Origin: Patescibacteria group bacterium
GTDB taxonomy: Bacteria; Patescibacteriota; Microgenomatia; Levybacterales; UBA12049
Length of the DNA stretch: 64,000 bases
NCBI GenBank assembly: GCA_035457005.1
Contig: DATICB010000020.1
Coordinates: 2,109-66,108 of the forward strand
Direction: 5' to 3'
This document shows positions 24,155 through 29,471 of this stretch, piece after piece (position 1 is the first letter of the stretch; every line of letters starts with the position of its first letter). Made by a program: the position numbers and the translations under genes. The notes under the pieces are model-generated. The model made no database searches. It saw only the letters and a program-made list of their open reading frames with translations, and was not told the DNA's origin.

Positions 24155-25048
24155 TTAGTTAGGCATGCGATGTCTTTGAAACCGTCTGAAAAAATGAGGA
24201 GTTCTTGGAGATTGTGACTCAGGAAGAAAATGAGTGTGGTATGTTTGTGGGGTAAGTAGCTCTGCTTTTCCGTTGACTAAGTATGCACCTGGTTTGGAAA
24301 CGCTGCGCAAATGATCATACTCTCTTCTCCCCAAAAGTTGCTGTCTTGTGAGGCTTTGTTCGGTAACTAATTCTATCCGTGTTCGCGGAACAACAGCAAC
24401 TCCGGCTTGCTCGAGTTGTTTTATCTTATCTGTATTCGATGTGGTGGCTATTGCAGGTCTTTCGCCAATAGTATCTTTGATAACTTTTGCCACAATGTCA
24501 TGACGACGCAGATCGTCATAATACCCCATTTCGTTGAATGCCTGCTGCATGGTTGGAATAGGAAGGTTGTGTTGCGCTGCCTCGTATTGTATGGTCGCTT
24601 GTCTGTGGACTGCTTGAGATCCGTGACCATTGCCGGCTGCTGTTTCCTCTGACACAATTGCCATAACGCCAATTCCCAATTCTGTCATTGTATCCAGCAT
24701 AAGGTCTCTCTGTTGCACACAGTCATGTCCTTGCATGTGAAAGCTAGATCCTAAATTCATGCACGGACAGGCATAATCTGCACGCACTGGTGCCGGTTCA
24801 TGCAGTGGTCTGCCTAAGCCAAGACTGTATACTGTCATTCTCATGTTTGTCTCAGGGTGTTGGTATTCTGTAACATCAAAAACAACAGGTTTGCCACCGT
24901 GCTCGGTATATACCTTTAGACCCCGAATGACACTGAATTGCTCGTCGTCAATAGTAATAGTTTCCCATGCGTTGGTGTGTGAAGCACCTTCTGTTTCTGT
25001 CGCACGCTGTGAGAAGTAGTCTGCTGGTTGTGGTGTTTCGGTGCTCAT
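24155..25048 (-). CDS. GTP cyclohydrolase II-family (RibA-like) protein with C-terminal extension
   Basis: Cys cluster CPC...HDC, GNGHGSQ, and C-terminal ...PAIATTSNTDKIKQLEQAGVAVV resembling the RibA LLTNNP.K...L...G region; noticeably higher GC (about 47%) than flanking genes. Confidence 0.5.
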   Translation of the reverse strand: MSTETPQPADYFSQRATETEGASHTNAWETITIDDEQFSVIRGLKVYTEHGGKPVVFDVTEYQHPETNMRMTVYSLGLGRPLHEPAPVRADYACPCMNLGSSFHMQGHDCVQQRDLMLDTMTELGIGVMAIVSEETAAGNGHGSQAVHRQATIQYEAAQHNLPIPTMQQAFNEMGYYDDLRRHDIVAKVIKDTIGERPAIATTSNTDKIKQLEQAGVAVVPRTRIELVTEQSLTRQQLLGRREYDHLRSVSKPGAYLVNGKAELLTPQTYHTHFLPESQSPRTPHFFRRFQRHRMPN

Positions 25049-25213: not shown

Positions 25214-25873
25214 TCAAGAGGAATTTGTTTTATTTACCAAAAATTCTTTCCCATGACCAACAGTAGTGTTGATGGGAATACCTTTCTTACACAGTGGACA
25301 CACGCTTTGACTATATGCATCTGCTTTAAAAACAGAAAGAGCGAAAAATGGCGCTTGCATAAATCTTCTAGTCACATCTTTTGGATTGCGATTAAGTAAA
25401 ACAAAAACGCCAACAACTTTTCCTTTTGCTTTTTTTACCTCGTCGACAACTTTCTTAACAGATGCTCCGGTTGTTGTTAGGTCCTCCACAACCAACACTC
25501 GTTTGTTTTTAATCAGCTCATCATAGCCCCTTTTAAATAGTTGCGGTTTGTCAAATTTTTGTACATCATCATAACTTTTTTCTGTAAATACACTTAAGAC
25601 TTCCTTTTTTGTCAATTTTGATAAATGATACGCAACCCACTGAGAAAGAATAATCCCTCCAACCGATGGTCCAACAACAATTTGAATTTTTTTATTTTTC
25701 ATTTCTTCTGCCATCATTTTGCACACTTTTGATGTCAAGAGCGTATGTGGATACAATTTATCTTTTCGAATATACACGCTACCATGTTTTCCCGACGTAT
25801 AGACAAAATGATCATTGGTAATAATTGCTCCTGTTTGCTCTAAGATTTGTAATGTTTTTTTATTTGTATCCAT
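25214..25873 (-). CDS. pyrE: orotate phosphoribosyltransferase
   Basis: PRPP-binding motif VLVVEDLTTTGASV; 219 aa. Confidence 0.85.
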   Translation of the reverse strand: MDTNKKTLQILEQTGAIITNDHFVYTSGKHGSVYIRKDKLYPHTLLTSKVCKMMAEEMKNKKIQIVVGPSVGGIILSQWVAYHLSKLTKKEVLSVFTEKSYDDVQKFDKPQLFKRGYDELIKNKRVLVVEDLTTTGASVKKVVDEVKKAKGKVVGVFVLLNRNPKDVTRRFMQAPFFALSVFKADAYSQSVCPLCKKGIPINTTVGHGKEFLVNKTNSS

Positions 25874-26671
25874 TTATCTGTATCTATTAATAGTATTTTT
25901 TGTTTTTTCTGCTTCTTCTCTGGGGTTTTTTGCAAAAATAATACTTCGTGAACTACTCATTATCAAACCAGCATTTTGAGAATTAAGTCCTGTCTGCAGC
26001 GTTTGTTTAATATCTCCTCCTTGCGCGCCAATACCTGGCACTAAAAATGTCATATCGCCAGCGAGTTTTCTTATTTCTTTTACTTCTTTTGGATATGTGG
26101 CACCAACGACCATAAGGCAATTTTTATTTTTATTCCATTTTCGCACAACACGTTTTGCAACTTTTCTATATATTGTTTCTTTGCCTATACGCAAGTCCTG
26201 AAATTCTCCTGCCCCTGGATTTGAAGTTTTACACAAAACAATAATTCCCTTTTCTTTTCTATCCAAAAAAGGCTGTATTGCTTCTTGTCCTAAATACGGA
26301 TGAATTGTTACAGCATCAACTTGTAAATAGTCAAATATAAATTGCACATAACCTTCGTTGGTGCTCCCGATATCACCCCTTTTTGCGTCAAGAATAATCG
26401 GAATTTCTGGATAATCTTTTTTGAGATAATCGCATGTTTTTTTTAACTCCCCTATTCCCTTTTCTCCCAGCGCTTCGTAGAAAGCAGAGTTTGGCTTATA
26501 ACAGCAAACTAAATTATGAGTGGTATCAATAATAAATTTATTAAATGCAAAAAATGAAAATTTTTCTTGGAGAAATTGTTTTGGTAATTTTTCCAAAACT
26601 GGATCCAGCCCAATACACAAAAGAGAATTATTTTTTTTCACCAAGTCATCTAATTTTTTTTGAAATGTCAT
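25874..26671 (-). CDS. pyrF: orotidine-5'-phosphate decarboxylase (long/type-2 form)
   Basis: ILDAKRGDIGST motif; start set to MTFQKKL, giving an ATGA overlap with the pyrD stop. Confidence 0.85.
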   Translation of the reverse strand: MTFQKKLDDLVKKNNSLLCIGLDPVLEKLPKQFLQEKFSFFAFNKFIIDTTHNLVCCYKPNSAFYEALGEKGIGELKKTCDYLKKDYPEIPIILDAKRGDIGSTNEGYVQFIFDYLQVDAVTIHPYLGQEAIQPFLDRKEKGIIVLCKTSNPGAGEFQDLRIGKETIYRKVAKRVVRKWNKNKNCLMVVGATYPKEVKEIRKLAGDMTFLVPGIGAQGGDIKQTLQTGLNSQNAGLIMSSSRSIIFAKNPREEAEKTKNTINRYR

Positions 26672-27732
26672 AGATATTTTTCCTTTATTTCTTGCGCAAA
26701 ATATGGATTCCACATTGCTGCAGTTGCACTCATAACAACATCTGCTCCAGTATCTCTATATTTTTTGTAATGTTTTGGAAGCATTACTCCACCCATTCCA
26801 ATAATAGTAAAGTTCATTTGCAAATCTTCTCGAATTTTTTTAAGGTTAGCAACCATATCAAGACCAGCCCATCGTACTCCGTCTCCACATGCTCCCGCGA
26901 TAAGTCTTCCAGGTAAAACTTCATTCCCCTTTTTGTCTATGACTTTTGTTGGAATAGTATTGATGCATGAAATACAATCAACTATATCGCCAACAGCCTT
27001 GACTAATTTTTTTAATTGTTCGTAATTGGGAAAATATGCAACCTTCACTACAAGAGGCATATTCCCCACTTCATTTTTTATTGCCTCCAGCACTTTCTGT
27101 GTTTTTGCAATATCAAAACAAAGTAGGCTAGACGAGCCCTCATTCGGACAACTCGTATTTGCTTCTAAAATTTTACAACCTGTTTCTTTTACCAACCGAG
27201 CAGTTGTCACCCAATCTTCAATAAATTGCCTTTCACTTCCACTTCCATCTGGAGTGCCTTCTGTCGCACATATGAGCATCTGTCCTTTTCCGATATATCC
27301 AACTGATTTTTTAAGATCTGGTTGCCAGATATCTGGGACGTGGGACGGATTGCCGAAGGAGTTGGTAATTGTTAACGGTTGTGTAAATCTTTTCTTGGCA
27401 TAAACACCTTTTGTGGCCTTGTTTAAGCTAAGTTGCCCCTTAATATTTAATTGAACAACATTCGGCCATTGATTAGAAGGCTTATTTCTCGATCTTACTG
27501 TTTTTTGAATAACTATATCGAAGCCTTTATCCAGTGCGCCTTTAATAAATTTGCTATTAAAGAGCGGTCCGGATGCAATACCAAACGGGAGAAAGACTTT
27601 TTGGTCTAGAAATTCGTATTCAGGCTTGCCTTTATTTTTGTAAACTTTGTTATCTGCAAATGCCCCAAAGGGCCCATCTTTCCAATTGTCTTCCCAAGAT
27701 TTCCCTGGATCGTAAAAAGGAGTATGAAGCAT
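26668..27732 (-). CDS. pyrD: dihydroorotate dehydrogenase, class 1 (PyrD family)
   Basis: TIM-barrel FMN enzyme; active-site NTSCPN motif (Cys base, class 1), GIASGP, C-terminal GMGGV FMN-phosphate loop. Confidence 0.8.
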   Translation of the reverse strand: MLHTPFYDPGKSWEDNWKDGPFGAFADNKVYKNKGKPEYEFLDQKVFLPFGIASGPLFNSKFIKGALDKGFDIVIQKTVRSRNKPSNQWPNVVQLNIKGQLSLNKATKGVYAKKRFTQPLTITNSFGNPSHVPDIWQPDLKKSVGYIGKGQMLICATEGTPDGSGSERQFIEDWVTTARLVKETGCKILEANTSCPNEGSSSLLCFDIAKTQKVLEAIKNEVGNMPLVVKVAYFPNYEQLKKLVKAVGDIVDCISCINTIPTKVIDKKGNEVLPGRLIAGACGDGVRWAGLDMVANLKKIREDLQMNFTIIGMGGVMLPKHYKKYRDTGADVVMSATAAMWNPYFAQEIKEKYL

Positions 27733-27734
27733 GT

Positions 27735-29345
27735 TTATAATCCCACATTGGCATCAACCAAACGACCAGAATGGTTGGAAAGAGATTTTCCGTTGGACTT
27801 TTCTGAAATGAGATTTGTGTGATTTTCGCTAAGATTACTCATTACTATTTGTGCAACTTCAACATCGGTAATTAGTCCAGCGCCTGTTTTGATTGCTCCT
27901 TTGCGGATTAATTTTCCGTCAGTAAATTCTTTACTTTCTTTAAACAATTTTCTTGTTGGAATATCGATAATTACATCAAACACTTTTTTATTCAACAAAT
28001 CTGCAATGTTGGGAGTTTCGCCAACTTCTGAAATTTTATGAACTAGTGCTGTCTGGACTCCTTTACTTTTTAAAAACTCATGGGTGTGTTCTGTCGCATA
28101 AAAAATTGCATTACCTGATTTGGCTAACAATTTGACAACTGGAAGTAATTGTCTTTTGTTTTCCACTCTACCAATCGAGAGAAGTATATGCTTTTTTTCA
28201 GGAATAATAATTGGCGCCTGTCCATAATGTTTTTTATTCCAATCCCCTGTCTGTAAATTAAGAAGATAGAAAAGCGATGCATTGCGAATATCTTTTTCTC
28301 CTAAAATATATTGCATGACGCGGTCATTACCTGCGCCATATCCTGCATGTGGATTTGTCCCTTTTTTCTCCATAATATCCAAGTACCATTTGAAATCTTC
28401 ATATCGCCCGCCTCTTTGGATATGCAACTTAAACATTGTTGATGTAATAAGTCTTTCGTTTAACTTTTCAAAATCGTGCTCTCTCACTGATGCGCCTGTT
28501 CCCTCTCCTGCATAGGGGAAAATGCAGTCTGCAGAAAGACATACTCTGCTGTCTTTACTTGATACTTTCATGTTAAAGAATTTAATTTCTTTTGGATATT
28601 TCATAATAAATACCGGTAGCTCCGTCTTGTCTTTTTTATTTAATACTTCAACAATTTTTGCTTCGTGGTTTGCCTTTAAATCGTCACCAAAAGAAACTTC
28701 TGGGTATCCATTGACATTGAGTAATTTCACTGCGTCTTCATAGCTAATACGGTGGAAATTATGAGTTGCAGCGTATCGAATTTTTTCAATATTTCTTTTG
28801 TATATAGTCTGAAGTATTTTTTCGTTGTCTTTAAGAATACCACTAAGCATACTCTGAATTGTTTCTTGAATATTAACGAGCAATGCTTCGTACATTTTAT
28901 CTTCATCGTATGTTTCGCGCGTCATACCAATGGTGGTACTGTCAAATTCTTCTTCTGTTAATCGAAATTGTCGTAAGTGTCTTTCGTCTTCTATTTCCTC
29001 ATCCCGTCCCGAATGAATAACAGTAAAAACACTTGGAAGACTTTGCAGCGCTTGTTCAAGTGCTAGCTGTCCTGTTTGAGTGAAGAAAAGCGGAATGTCG
29101 TTATGATTTCCTACTTTGAAAAGTGTATCAACATTTTCGCATGCACCAGTTATGCCAACAATCTCCGGGACATCAACATATGTTCTGCCCCTCTTGCGAT
29201 AACTGTCATACGCCCCTTTATTTAATGATTGATAGAAACCAACTAAATTGTTGAAATGTGTATTAAAGTCTAATTGTACTTTTTTATTTTCTACAGTTAG
29301 TTCAATTGCTTTTTTCATGTTTTTTATTTTGTCAATTTTGGTCAA
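27735..29345 (-). CDS. AsnRS/AspRS-like class II synthetase catalytic core (archaeal-type AsnA-like) fused to a C-terminal MGS-like domain
   Basis: motif 2 HLRQFRLTEEEF (FRxE); motif 3 GYGAGNDRVMQYILGEKDIRNASLF; no anticodon-binding domain; residues about 390-536 (ILLSIGRVENKRQLLPVVKLLAKSGNAIFYATEHTHEFLKSKGV...VIIDIP...GAIKTGAGLITDVEVA) match the MGS-like allosteric domain of CarB. Confidence 0.6.
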   Translation of the reverse strand: MTKIDKIKNMKKAIELTVENKKVQLDFNTHFNNLVGFYQSLNKGAYDSYRKRGRTYVDVPEIVGITGACENVDTLFKVGNHNDIPLFFTQTGQLALEQALQSLPSVFTVIHSGRDEEIEDERHLRQFRLTEEEFDSTTIGMTRETYDEDKMYEALLVNIQETIQSMLSGILKDNEKILQTIYKRNIEKIRYAATHNFHRISYEDAVKLLNVNGYPEVSFGDDLKANHEAKIVEVLNKKDKTELPVFIMKYPKEIKFFNMKVSSKDSRVCLSADCIFPYAGEGTGASVREHDFEKLNERLITSTMFKLHIQRGGRYEDFKWYLDIMEKKGTNPHAGYGAGNDRVMQYILGEKDIRNASLFYLLNLQTGDWNKKHYGQAPIIIPEKKHILLSIGRVENKRQLLPVVKLLAKSGNAIFYATEHTHEFLKSKGVQTALVHKISEVGETPNIADLLNKKVFDVIIDIPTRKLFKESKEFTDGKLIRKGAIKTGAGLITDVEVAQIVMSNLSENHTNLISEKSNGKSLSNHSGRLVDANVGL

Positions 29346-29369
29346 AAAAAAGAGCCGAAACGGCTCTTA
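29343..29369 (-). terminator. rho-independent terminator / candidate attenuator hairpin
   Basis: minus strand AAGAGCCG-TTT-CGGCTCTT followed by TTTTTT; the stop codon of the 18-aa uORF overlaps the 5' arm. Confidence 0.65.
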
Positions 29370-29423
29370 TATGTTTTGCGCTTTTGCGAAAATCTTTATT
29401 TTTTTATTTTTACAAGTTGTCAT
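29367..29423 (-). CDS. candidate leader peptide (18 aa) MTTCKNKKIKIFAKAQNI
   Basis: AAGGAG 8 nt upstream of ATG; stop codon abuts the terminator stem; promoter-like element upstream. Confidence 0.3.
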   Translation of the reverse strand: MTTCKNKKIKIFAKAQNI

Positions 29424-29442
29424 TTTTTTATCTCCTTGAATA

Positions 29443-29471
29443 ACATTAAAGAGTTTTGAAAACCTTGTCAA
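29443..29471 (-). promoter_or_regulatory. sigma70-like promoter candidate for the leader/pyr transcription unit
   Basis: minus strand TTGACA-N17-TAATGT, 11 nt upstream of the SD. Confidence 0.4.

What the first reader, a model, noticed from the sequence alone, without database searches (positions are those of the whole stretch)
27735..29345. Class II aminoacyl-tRNA-synthetase-like core (AsnA/AsnRS-type) fused to a CarB-type MGS allosteric domain, heading a pyrD-pyrF-pyrE operon
The N-terminal 380 aa have AsnRS/AspRS catalytic motifs 2 and 3 (HLRQFRLTEEEF; GYGAGNDRVMQYILGEKDIRNASLF) and no anticodon-binding domain. This is the architecture of archaeal-type asparagine synthetase A. The C-terminal 150 aa align to the methylglyoxal-synthase-like domain that forms the UMP/IMP/ornithine-binding allosteric tail of carbamoyl-phosphate synthetase CarB. 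The gene sits in the position carB often occupies upstream of pyrD-pyrF-pyrE. No carA, carB, pyrB or pyrC lies in this window, so whether they exist elsewhere is unknown. I have not seen this fusion described. It suggests either nucleotide-regulated amidation of an Asp-type substrate or an unrecognised step feeding pyrimidine synthesis in a reduced genome.
Basis: partly seen in the sequence, partly recalled or inferred. Interest (0 to 1): 0.8.

Follow-up and report, generated by a model that had tools for sequence, protein, structure and literature searches.

The report
AsnRS-like ligase heading pyrimidine operon
A candidate-phyla bacterium has a tRNA-synthetase-like enzyme carrying the regulatory tail of carbamoyl-phosphate synthetase, sitting where related genomes keep the first four pyrimidine-synthesis genes, which points to an undescribed way of starting pyrimidine synthesis.

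Summary
Window 27735-29345 (minus strand; probable ATG at 29318, 527 aa) encodes an AsnRS-type class II catalytic core with no anticodon domain, fused to a CarB-type MGS allosteric domain. It directly precedes pyrD-pyrF-pyrE.

The fusion is not rare. More than 120 protein clusters in Patescibacteria/Microgenomates carry it, annotated only generically, and I found no paper on it.

- It is a distinct AsnRS-derived clade, not a member of the characterised AsnA or archaeal AS-AR families.
- The ATP, Mg and amino-acid contact residues are invariant.
- The tRNA-contacting motif-2 loop has turned acidic.
- The tail keeps the CarB UMP/IMP and ornithine contact residues.

PyrD lies in the held flanks of 25 of 40 fused loci. 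Single polypeptides aaRS-like+MGS+PyrD(+PRTase) exist. In relatives, the same slot (atp operon … pyrD-pyrF-pyrE-pyrG) holds carA-carB-pyrB-pyrC.

An ArgG+MGS fusion and a PRK06886 amidohydrolase often join the cluster.

Best reading (about 0.5): an AsnA-type, AMP-forming amide ligase committed to the upstream half of pyrimidine ring synthesis, under nucleotide/ornithine control. The exact substrate is unresolved. The main rival is a plain asparagine synthetase.

The parts
27735..29318 (-). CDS of the aaRS-like + MGS fusion (527 aa from ATG 29318; the ORF lister extends it to TTG 29345, which lies inside the upstream terminator's T-run)
28269..29297 (-). AsnRS-type class II catalytic core (motifs 1-3; no anticodon-binding domain)
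27867..28148 (-). MGS-like domain of the CarB allosteric type
27738..27815 (-). C-terminal low-complexity tail, pLDDT below 50, absent from most homologs (which are about 495 aa)
29342..29368 (-). Intrinsic-terminator-like hairpin (AAGAGCCGTTTCGGCTCTT) plus T-run directly upstream of the start codon; putative attenuator
   Evidence: conserved upstream of 72% of family genes against 4-7% of other genes
29367..29423 (-). 18-codon leader ORF (MTTCKNKKIKIFAKAQNI) with GGAGA Shine-Dalgarno; its stop codon overlaps the 5' base of the terminator stem (tentative)
29443..29471 (-). Promoter-like TTGACA-17-TAATGT upstream of the leader (read by eye; below the scanner's threshold)
26668..27732 (-). Divergent DHO_dh-family protein ('PyrD*'), start 2 nt after the fusion's stop
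   Evidence: Pfam PF01180 E 1.1e-16; far below NCBIfam cut-offs; own profile
25874..26713 (-). pyrF (OMP decarboxylase)
   Evidence: TIGR02127 257.5 bits against cut-off 110.6
25214..25873 (-). pyrE-type orotate phosphoribosyltransferase
   Evidence: TIGR01367 121.6 bits (below cut-off 150.25), PF00156
25060..25107 (-). Two terminator-like hairpins closing the operon after pyrE

Best explanation
The gene encodes a catalytically competent, tRNA-independent, AMP-forming ligase derived from the AsnRS catalytic core.

Proposed mechanism: it most likely works like AsnA or archaeal AS-AR. It adenylates a carboxylate of aspartate, or of an N-substituted aspartate, and a nitrogen nucleophile attacks the adenylate to form an amide. 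In Microgenomates this chemistry is committed to the upstream half of pyrimidine ring synthesis. The amide it forms is, or becomes, the N3-C4 bond of dihydroorotate. The product is handed to the adjacent, sometimes covalently fused, dihydroorotate dehydrogenase.

The enzyme acts alone or together with an ArgG+MGS fusion and a PRK06886 amidohydrolase. Together these take the place of carA-carB-pyrB-pyrC.

The CarB-derived MGS tail keeps the UMP/IMP and ornithine contact residues. It most likely provides feedback or feed-forward control, and possibly docking to the other MGS-bearing enzymes of the cluster.

Shown: domain identity, residue conservation, gene order, fusions, synteny replacement.

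Inferred: catalysis, reaction type, effector binding.

Unresolved sub-variants:
(a) Asp + NH3 gives Asn, which then serves as the ring precursor.
(b) ATP-driven ring closure of N-carbamoyl-aspartate or argininosuccinate made by ArgG and the amidohydrolase.
(c) Asp plus a carbamoyl-type N-donor (citrulline, urea or carbamoyl phosphate), followed by closure.
(d) Asn + CO2 closure in the manner of dethiobiotin synthetase.
For: Catalytic competence:
- Motif-2 Arg/Glu, motif-3 Arg, the Mg ligands, the flipping-loop Glu and the GxxxRE Arg are invariant across 80 loci and 45 aligned proteins.
- The roles of the equivalent human AsnRS residues E279, R322 and E324 are documented in PMC10831071.

Not a tRNA synthetase:
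- There is no anticodon domain.
- The motif-2 loop is acidic (RDEEiEDeRH) against basic RAEKSRTRRH in AsnRS.
- No anticodon-domain gene sits beside stand-alone cores.

Link to pyrimidine synthesis:
- PyrD lies in the held flanks of 25 of 40 fused loci, usually as the next gene.
- Single ORFs carry aaRS-like+MGS+DHO_dh(+PRTase): L031, P0121, P0126.
- MGS+PyrD and MGS-only partners occur next to the fusion in L109 and L097.
- Stand-alone relatives next to pyr genes occur in Oligoflexales (L072, L082) and an Uhrbacteria MAG (L064).

Replacement of the canonical block:
- L088 and L089 read atp operon-carA-carB-pyrB-pyrC-pyrD-pyrF-pyrE-pyrG.
- L002, L016, L033, L038 and L041 keep the same flanks with aaRS-like+MGS, with or without ArgG+MGS and the amidohydrolase, in place of the four genes.
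- None of the 40 fused loci has PyrB or CarB in the held flanks, and one has PyrC.
- Contig-length fingerprints share 6 contigs with ArgG+MGS and none with PyrB.

Tail:
- Equivalents of CarB S948, K954, T974, T977, K993, N1015 and T1042 are conserved in 38-41 of 41 tails, and also in the ArgG+MGS tails.
- The roles of T977, K993, S948 and T1042 are confirmed in PMC6245113.
- The closest fold for the tail is the CPS1 MGS domain.

Regulation: a terminator-type element sits directly upstream of 72% of family genes against 4-7% of other genes.
Against: - No biochemical data exist, and no whole-genome presence/absence test could be run here.
- The enzyme coexists with an apparently intact DHOase in L006 and with a full canonical set in L067. 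It is therefore not a strict replacement of any single canonical enzyme.
- ArgG+MGS and the amidohydrolase can directly precede pyrD-pyrE-pyrF without the aaRS-like gene (L092, L093, L103, L108). They also coexist with the canonical genes in L099.
- Fused and stand-alone cores are nearly identical in all pocket motifs. Only 3 of 31 stand-alone CPR cores have PyrD nearby. A general function outside pyrimidine synthesis, such as Asn synthesis, therefore fits them.
- The residues that bind the free alpha-amino group in AsnRS are conserved. This favours a free amino acid (Asp or Asn) over an N-acylated substrate.
Confidence: 0.5

Rival explanations
1. It is a plain asparagine synthetase, a third independently evolved aaRS-derived AS. 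It makes Asn for protein synthesis. The pyr-operon position and the CarB tail would then be historical (a leftover 3' end of carB after genome reduction) or reflect only shared use and regulation of aspartate. PyrD, PyrE and PyrF would serve salvage of dihydroorotate or orotate.
For: - The pocket is AsnRS-like, with Leu at the position of AspRS Lys198, and the alpha-amino contacts are conserved.
- Stand-alone cores with the same motifs are common in CPR and DPANN without pyr neighbours.
- The gene coexists with the full canonical pathway in L067.
Against: - Fusions to PyrD(-PRTase) recur in separate clusters.
- MGS-PyrD partners exist.
- Effector-binding residues of the tail are under strong conservation.
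- The same tail is found on ArgG within the same cluster.
- Pyr linkage appears in three distant lineages, including ones without the MGS tail.
- The syntenic slot is that of carA-carB-pyrB-pyrC.
- The upstream terminator geometry does not look like an amino-acid-starvation attenuator, and the leaders are not Asn-rich.
Confidence: 0.3
2. It is a non-catalytic regulatory or scaffold subunit, as HisZ is for HisG. It would sense Asp/Asn, ATP and UMP/ornithine and control or assemble DHODH and OPRT.
For: - The protein is physically fused to PyrD-PRTase.
- MGS domains appear on several cluster members.
Against: All catalytic residues are invariant over deep divergence, including the Mg ligands and the transition-state arginines. 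That is not expected for a pure sensor.
Confidence: 0.07
3. It is a split or minimal AsnRS that still charges tRNA(Asn), with anticodon recognition supplied in trans or dispensed with.
For: Among known families it is closest in sequence and fold to true AsnRS.
Against: - There is no anticodon-binding domain in the protein or in neighbouring genes.
- The motif-2 loop is acidic where AsnRS is basic.
- It scores far below the asnS cut-off: 171.7 against 342.6 bits.
- Its operon and fusion partners are metabolic enzymes.
Confidence: 0.03

Closest known systems
Asparaginyl-tRNA synthetase (class IIb), catalytic domain
   Different: - It has no OB-fold anticodon domain.
- The motif-2 loop is acidic rather than basic.
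- It has a family-specific insertion (TSTMFKLH) and signature motifs (TGACENxDTLF, YPKEIKFFNM).
- It carries a C-terminal MGS domain.
- It is encoded in pyr operons.
Archaeal asparagine synthetase A (AS-AR, Pyrococcus; PDB 3p8t) and E. coli AsnA (11as/12as)
   Same: All are aaRS catalytic cores without an anticodon domain. The proposed mechanism is the same: an aspartyl-adenylate attacked by a nitrogen nucleophile.
Allosteric (MGS-like) C-terminal domain of carbamoyl-phosphate synthetase CarB / CPS1
   Different: It is attached to an aaRS-like ligase (and, in the same clusters, to ArgG and to PyrD) rather than to the ATP-grasp synthetase domains. Its ligand is untested.
HisZ, the HisRS-like regulatory subunit of ATP phosphoribosyltransferase
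   Same: Both are class II aaRS paralogs without tRNA function that are associated with a PRTase-containing biosynthetic pathway.
   Different: HisZ has lost the catalytic residues, whereas here they are invariant.
CAD and UMPS-type multienzyme fusions of pyrimidine synthesis
   Same: Pyrimidine-pathway enzymes are fused into one polypeptide (aaRS-like+MGS+PyrD+PRTase in L031 and P0121).
   Different: The domain set is different. The upstream catalytic unit is an aaRS-like ligase rather than CPSase/ATCase/DHOase.

Membership tests
Asparaginyl-tRNA synthetase (asnS) | Class II catalytic core with motifs 1, 2 and 3 and AsnRS-type active-site residues | tested here: met
Asparaginyl-tRNA synthetase (asnS) | N-terminal OB-fold anticodon-binding domain | tested here: not met
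   The core match starts at residue 17; asnS model positions 1-137 are not covered; there is no PF01336 hit
Asparaginyl-tRNA synthetase (asnS) | Score above the curated equivalog cut-off | tested here: not met
   TIGR00457 171.7 bits against 342.6; NF003037 160.7 against 414
Asparaginyl-tRNA synthetase (asnS) | Aminoacylation of tRNA(Asn) | not testable with these tools
   Indirect evidence only: the acidic motif-2 loop argues against it
Asparagine synthetase A (AsnA / archaeal AS-AR) | aaRS-type catalytic core lacking an anticodon-binding domain | tested here: met
Asparagine synthetase A (AsnA / archaeal AS-AR) | Sequence membership (NCBIfam AsnA equivalogs above cut-off; close similarity to 3p8t or 12as) | tested here: not met
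Asparagine synthetase A (AsnA / archaeal AS-AR) | Catalyses Asp + NH3 + ATP to Asn + AMP + PPi | not testable with these tools
   An enzyme assay is needed
CarB-type allosteric MGS domain | MGS-like fold and Pfam membership | tested here: met
CarB-type allosteric MGS domain | Conservation of effector-contact residues (E. coli S948, K954, T974, T977, K993, N1015, T1042) | tested here: met
   38-41 of 41 tails conserve each position. In the window protein itself the N1015 equivalent is Asp. Roles of four of the residues are confirmed in PMC6245113; the other three come from my own knowledge.
CarB-type allosteric MGS domain | Attached to the CPSase large-subunit synthetase domains | tested here: not met
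   No CPSase_L domains in the protein
CarB-type allosteric MGS domain | Binds UMP/IMP/ornithine and modulates catalysis | not testable with these tools
   Binding and kinetic assays are needed
Methylglyoxal synthase proper | Sequence membership in the enzyme family | tested here: not met
HisZ-like non-catalytic aaRS paralog | Loss of catalytic residues | tested here: not met
   Catalytic residues are invariant

The most novel reading that the evidence does not exclude
Microgenomates (CPR) bacteria make dihydroorotate without carbamoyl-phosphate synthetase, aspartate transcarbamoylase or dihydroorotase. They would use an AsnRS-derived ligase, alone or with an argininosuccinate synthase + MGS fusion and a PRK06886 cytosine-deaminase-like amidohydrolase fed by arginine or citrulline. 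All of these carry, or dock through, the CarB allosteric domain. That would be a previously unrecognised entry into de novo pyrimidine synthesis.
Probability: 0.35. Interest if true: 0.93.

Novelty: new variant of a known kind. Interest (0 to 1): 0.8.

Why it matters
De novo pyrimidine synthesis is regarded as one of the most invariant pathways in biology. CPR bacteria are usually scored as lacking it when carAB, pyrB and pyrC are absent.

If this ligase, with or without the ArgG+MGS and amidohydrolase pair, supplies dihydroorotate, several things follow:
- Many 'auxotrophic' CPR genomes would in fact be prototrophic for pyrimidines.
- Metabolic reconstructions would need revising.
- A new aaRS-derived enzyme chemistry and a new use of the CarB allosteric domain would be defined.

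Even under the conservative reading it would be a third, independent invention of an aaRS-derived asparagine synthetase, uniquely wired to nucleotide sensing.

The side observation that the partner amidohydrolase is conserved in Pasteurellaceae gives a culturable system in which part of the idea can be tested. The review read treats H. influenzae as a pyrimidine auxotroph. From my own knowledge, unverified here, it keeps pyrD, pyrE, pyrF and argG.

Tried and rejected
1. Strict replacement of dihydroorotase. Rejected: intact-looking PyrC sits next to the gene in L006 and L067.
2. Split AsnRS with an anticodon domain in trans. No such gene lies beside stand-alone cores, and there is no other AsnRS/AspRS-like ORF in the window.
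3. T-box, PyrR-site or other known RNA element upstream. Rfam gives nothing at the gathering threshold or at E up to 10.
4. Asn-codon-rich leader peptides. Not seen.
5. The roughly 460-aa N-terminal extension of the L067/P0124/P0133 variants. No Pfam, NCBIfam or PDB match beyond a weak TPR-like hit, so it was uninformative.
6. Whole-genome absence of carAB/pyrB/pyrC. This could not be tested. The contig-length fingerprint test is therefore only suggestive.
7. ArgH next to ArgG+MGS. Not found; the Lyase_1 gene in L035 is a fumarase/aspartase type.
8. The AFDB fold library was unavailable.
9. Literature searches on Patescibacteria pyrimidine synthesis, AsnRS paralog + MGS, and argininosuccinate/dihydroorotate alternative pathways found nothing relevant.
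10. PyrD* acting between the ligase and the amidohydrolase on a 2-substituted ring. Set aside, because canonical PyrD (about 306 aa, closely similar to the PyrD of canonical operons) also follows the fusion.
Full report
WHAT IS THERE

On the minus strand, 27735-29345 is an uninterrupted ORF of 536 aa from a TTG. The TTG lies inside the T-run of an upstream terminator. The ATG at 29318 gives 527 aa. That version is identical to an NCBI protein from a Patescibacteria MAG (P0001, 'amino acid--tRNA ligase-related protein') and matches the N-termini of homologs.

Domain evidence:
- Pfam places tRNA-synt_2 on residues 17-359 (E 2.9e-30) and MGS on residues 400-493 (E 4.1e-9). Both are above the gathering scores.
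- NCBIfam's best hit is asnS, but it covers only catalytic positions 138-448 of 455 and scores half the cut-off. The tail matches CarB positions 927-1052 of 1058.
- The closest solved relatives by sequence are AsnRS (1x54, E 4e-27). The tail hits the human CPS1 MGS domain (2yvq).
- An AlphaFold model built on 45 homologs has mean pLDDT 83. It is weak in the flipping-loop region and in the last 26 residues.

SURROUNDINGS IN THE WINDOW

The fusion's stop is 2 nt from the ATG of a DHO_dh-family gene (26668-27732). That gene is divergent: 61 bits in Pfam and far below the NCBIfam cut-offs. It is followed by pyrF (above cut-off) and a pyrE-type PRTase, then two terminators. Upstream are folD, gyrA, ppa and gyrB. 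The rest of the window is ordinary CPR housekeeping.

No carA, carB, pyrB, pyrC, ArgG or PRK06886 homolog is present among window ORFs of at least 60 aa.

HOW COMMON IT IS AND WHAT FAMILY IT BELONGS TO

- The word-indexed search returned 745 hits. The top 120 clusters (63-82% identity) all carry both Pfam domains. Their names are generic.
- The exhaustive search with the core alone found 91 50%-identity clusters at E up to 1e-30. True AsnRS starts only near E 1e-26.
- A genome scan gave 80 loci from Microgenomates (Levy-, Roizman-, Gottesman-, Beckwith-, Woesebacteria), other CPR, DPANN archaea and Oligoflexales.
- All members share signature motifs (TGACENxDTLF, QTGQLxLE, YPKEIKFFNM, GExxGxAxRE, PHAGYGxGxxR) and an insertion absent from AsnRS.
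- A neighbour-joining tree makes the family monophyletic relative to AsnRS, with a DPANN/Oligoflexales clade and a CPR clade. MGS-fused forms fill the Microgenomates crown, with stand-alone forms interspersed. The tail was therefore gained early and lost or split several times.
- Fused and unfused CPR cores are essentially identical in every pocket motif, so they very likely share their chemistry.

IS IT AN ENZYME, AND DOES IT USE tRNA?

The residues that bind ATP, Mg2+ and the amino acid in class IIb synthetases are invariant: E61, Q84, R105, E107, E122, E124, D264, E272, R279 and R333 (527-aa numbering). The roles of the flipping-loop Glu and the motif-2 Arg/Glu are documented for human AsnRS in PMC10831071. 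The position of AspRS Lys198 is Leu, as in AsnRS.

Against tRNA charging:
- There is no anticodon domain.
- No such domain is encoded beside stand-alone cores.
- The motif-2 loop is acidic or neutral throughout the family, where AsnRS is strongly basic.

I conclude, by inference, that it is an active tRNA-independent adenylate-forming ligase.

THE TAIL

I aligned 41 tails with E. coli CarB. The equivalents of S948, K954, T974, T977, K993, N1015 and T1042 are conserved in 38-41 of the 41, and likewise in the ArgG+MGS tails.

PMC6245113 states that T977 and K993 are crucial for UMP inhibition and binding. It also states that S948F abolishes UMP/IMP sensitivity and that T1042 binds ornithine. The roles of K954, T974 and N1015 come from my own recollection of the CPS-IMP structure.

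In the window protein itself the N1015 equivalent is Asp. The tail is more similar to the ArgG+MGS tail (E about 1e-20 to 1e-27) than to CarB's own tail (about 1e-10 to 1e-14).

GENOMIC CONTEXT ELSEWHERE

Counts over the AARS-centred loci:
- Of 40 fused loci, the held flanks contain PyrD in 25, usually as the very next gene. They contain PyrF in 20 and PyrE in 12.
- They contain PyrB in none, CarB in none and PyrC in one.
- Of 31 stand-alone CPR cores, only 3 have PyrD nearby.

Physical fusions and partners:
- L031 (1129 aa) and P0121 (1134 aa) are aaRS-like + MGS + DHO_dh + PRTase.
- P0126 (807 aa) is aaRS-like + MGS + DHO_dh.
- L109 has aaRS-like+MGS followed by MGS+PyrD+PRTase.
- L097 has an MGS-only ORF between the fusion and PyrD.

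Stand-alone relatives next to pyr genes occur in Oligoflexales (L072, L082: PRTase, core, pyrF) and in an Uhrbacteria MAG (L064).

SYNTENY REPLACEMENT

Canonical Microgenomates operons read as follows:
- L088, L089: atpBEFHAGDC - carA - carB - pyrB - pyrC - pyrD - pyrF - pyrE - pyrG.
- L087: carA carB pyrB pyrC pyrD pyrK … pyrF pyrE prs pyrG rplS.

Variant operons keep the same flanks:
- L002: atp operon - CBS protein - aaRS-like+MGS - PyrD - pyrF - pyrE - pyrG - rplS.
- L033, L038 and L041 are alike.
- L016: atp operon - CBS - ArgG+MGS - PRK06886 amidohydrolase - aaRS-like+MGS - PyrD … pyrF pyrE … pyrG.

So the four-gene upstream block is replaced at the same site.

Contig-length fingerprints across the three top-120 hit lists share six contigs between aaRS-like+MGS and ArgG+MGS. 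They share none between either of these and PyrB. This is weak evidence, because the lists are truncated and the database is incomplete.

THE COMPANION GENES

- ArgG+MGS scores as a bona fide argininosuccinate synthase (506 bits against a cut-off of 334) with the CarB-type tail. It is itself widespread: more than 120 clusters at 74% identity or higher.
- The amidohydrolase matches NCBIfam PRK06886 'hypothetical protein' above cut-off. It is related to cytosine deaminases, not to DHOase.
- A reciprocal scan starting from the amidohydrolase gave 23 CPR-type loci. ArgG+MGS is adjacent in 17 and the aaRS-like gene is within 8 kb in 5-6.
- In L092, L093, L103 and L108 the order is ArgG+MGS - amidohydrolase - PyrD - pyrE - pyrF with no aaRS-like gene.
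- In L096 the amidohydrolase is fused to PyrD.
- DDAH/arginine-deiminase-like genes sit in the cluster in L035, L096, L097, L099 and L100.
- L099 has the canonical genes and the pair side by side.
- When all three genes are present, the order is ArgG+MGS, amidohydrolase, aaRS-like+MGS, PyrD.

WHAT IT MOST LIKELY DOES

The data support a pathway-level assignment: a ligase dedicated to the upstream part of pyrimidine synthesis and controlled through a CarB-type domain. I hold this with fair confidence.

At the chemical level I commit to AsnA-type chemistry, in which an aspartyl-adenylate is attacked by a nitrogen nucleophile. The amide formed corresponds to N3-C4 of dihydroorotate. This umbrella covers four sub-variants:
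(a) Asp + NH3 gives Asn, which is used as the ring precursor.
(b) ATP-driven closure of N-carbamoyl-aspartate or argininosuccinate. Citrulline + Asp would go through ArgG, and the amidohydrolase would remove ornithine. The gene order is colinear with this.
(c) Asp plus a carbamoyl-type N donor (citrulline, urea or carbamoyl phosphate), followed by displacement of the leaving group by the alpha-amine.
(d) Asn + CO2 closure, analogous to dethiobiotin synthetase.

How the evidence weighs on these:
- Operon 'completeness' favours variants in which the ligase alone can feed PyrD. Nine long-flank loci have only the fusion upstream of PyrD.
- The conserved alpha-amino contacts favour free Asp or Asn as substrate.
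- Coexistence with intact PyrC (L006, L067) excludes a strict DHOase replacement.

I cannot resolve the substrate in silico.

RIVALS

- A plain asparagine synthetase with a historical or regulatory link to the operon (0.3) fits the pocket and the many stand-alone members. It explains the repeated fusions to PyrD, the conserved effector residues, the same tail on ArgG and the cross-lineage pyr linkage poorly.
- A HisZ-like pseudo-enzyme (0.07) is contradicted by the invariant catalytic residues.
- A minimal AsnRS (0.03) is contradicted by the missing anticodon domain and the acidic motif-2 loop.

AN UNEXPECTED REGULATORY FEATURE

- A terminator-like hairpin plus T-run lies within 80 nt of the core start in 47 of 65 CPR family genes. 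The figure for other genes in the same loci is 26 of 729, or 49 of 729 with a lenient window (Fisher p about 6e-42).
- It occurs with fused and stand-alone forms and after different upstream genes. The stem is often AGAGCC-loop-GGCUCU. A similar hairpin precedes 7 of 20 ArgG+MGS genes.
- In 22 of 46 cases a short ORF ends at the hairpin's 5' base, against about 11 expected by shuffling. In the window this is MTTCKNKKIKIFAKAQNI with a GGAGA Shine-Dalgarno.
- The geometry resembles the translation-coupled, UTP-sensitive pyrE/pyrBI attenuators of E. coli (own knowledge). There is no Asn-codon enrichment and no Rfam match.

COMPARISON WITH THE KNOWN, AND NOVELTY

- It works like AsnA or AS-AR but fails their membership tests.
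- It resembles AsnRS most but lacks that family's defining anticodon domain and cut-off score.
- Its tail is a CarB allosteric domain in a new host.
- I found no paper describing the fusion, the clade or the gene cluster.

I rate it a new variant of a known kind (an aaRS-derived metabolic ligase). There is a substantial chance, about 0.35, that it marks a categorically new entry into pyrimidine synthesis.

Noticed in passing
window 29342-29471 (minus strand); also upstream of the aaRS-like gene in L001, L002, L004, L007, L017, L021, L028-L032, L036, L037, L041, L044, L047 and others: A conserved terminator-like hairpin plus T-run lies directly upstream of the family's start codon. It is present for 72% of family genes against 4-7% of other genes. 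A short leader ORF often ends at the hairpin. This is a putative attenuator of unknown signal with pyrE/pyrBI-like geometry. A similar hairpin precedes 7 of 20 ArgG+MGS genes.
   Followed up: partly
L009 7323-9011, L010 7344-9011, L016 7507-9120, L035 5381-7021, L046 8759-10366, L015 8162-9781; P0391-P0510: A bona fide argininosuccinate synthase is fused to a CarB-type MGS domain. It is widespread in Microgenomates (more than 120 clusters) and sits in pyr clusters, with no ArgH nearby.
   Followed up: partly
L009 9001-9996, L010 8998-9996, L035 8861-9841, L011 3045-4046, L046 7035-8009; L096 2701-4270: A cytosine-deaminase-related amidohydrolase (NCBIfam PRK06886 'hypothetical protein') is tightly paired with ArgG+MGS. 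The pair can directly precede pyrD-pyrE-pyrF without the aaRS-like gene. In L096 the amidohydrolase is fused to PyrD.
   Followed up: partly
L113-L169 (for example L148 7983-8975); clusters P0511-P0540: The same amidohydrolase family is conserved at about 64% identity across Pasteurellaceae (Haemophilus influenzae, H. parainfluenzae, Pasteurella, Aggregatibacter, Gallibacterium). There it sits next to yejK/yejM/gltX-type genes. H. influenzae is treated as a pyrimidine auxotroph (PMC13328217). From my own knowledge, not checked here, it retains pyrD/E/F and argG.
   Followed up: partly
L035 6639-7865 and 7911-8726; L096 1893-2708; L097 8981-10661; L099 9882-10718; L100 7183-7989: DDAH/arginine-dihydrolase-like genes (guanidino-group-modifying enzymes; arginine to citrulline) lie inside the ArgG+MGS and amidohydrolase clusters.
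   Followed up: no
window 26668-27732; L004, L011, L016, L028, L035, L041; L007 11486-13339, L009 11469-13388: There is a divergent DHO_dh-family 'PyrD*' of about 355-375 aa that scores far below the NCBIfam DHODH cut-offs. In some loci it is fused to a C-terminal PRTase. It alternates with a canonical roughly 306-aa PyrD at the same operon position.
   Followed up: partly
L067 8606-11131; P0124, P0133: A subfamily of 822-857 aa carries the aaRS-like core at the C-terminus, preceded by a roughly 460-aa helical (weakly TPR-like) extension with no family match. In L067 it sits inside a complete canonical pyr operon.
   Followed up: partly
L109 10476-12728; L097 14007-14408; L027 11147-11527; L054 1705-2274: The MGS domain also occurs N-terminal to PyrD-PRTase, and as a stand-alone small ORF right after the aaRS-like gene. 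This suggests a shared docking or sensor module across the cluster.
   Followed up: no
L002 9404-9871, L016 6960-7457, L038 9378-9860, L041 9401-9889: A small CBS-pair protein lies between the atp operon and the alternative pyr module. It is absent from that position in the canonical operons L088 and L089.
   Followed up: no
L035 12607-13917; L067 11121-13647; L088 12041-14646: Class II fumarase/aspartase and malic-enzyme genes lie next to pyrD, which hints at a fumarate-dependent DHODH in these anaerobes.
   Followed up: no
window 24155-25048 (minus strand): A 297-aa ORF just after the pyr operon has only a weak GTP cyclohydrolase II match (E 1.3e-6).
   Followed up: no
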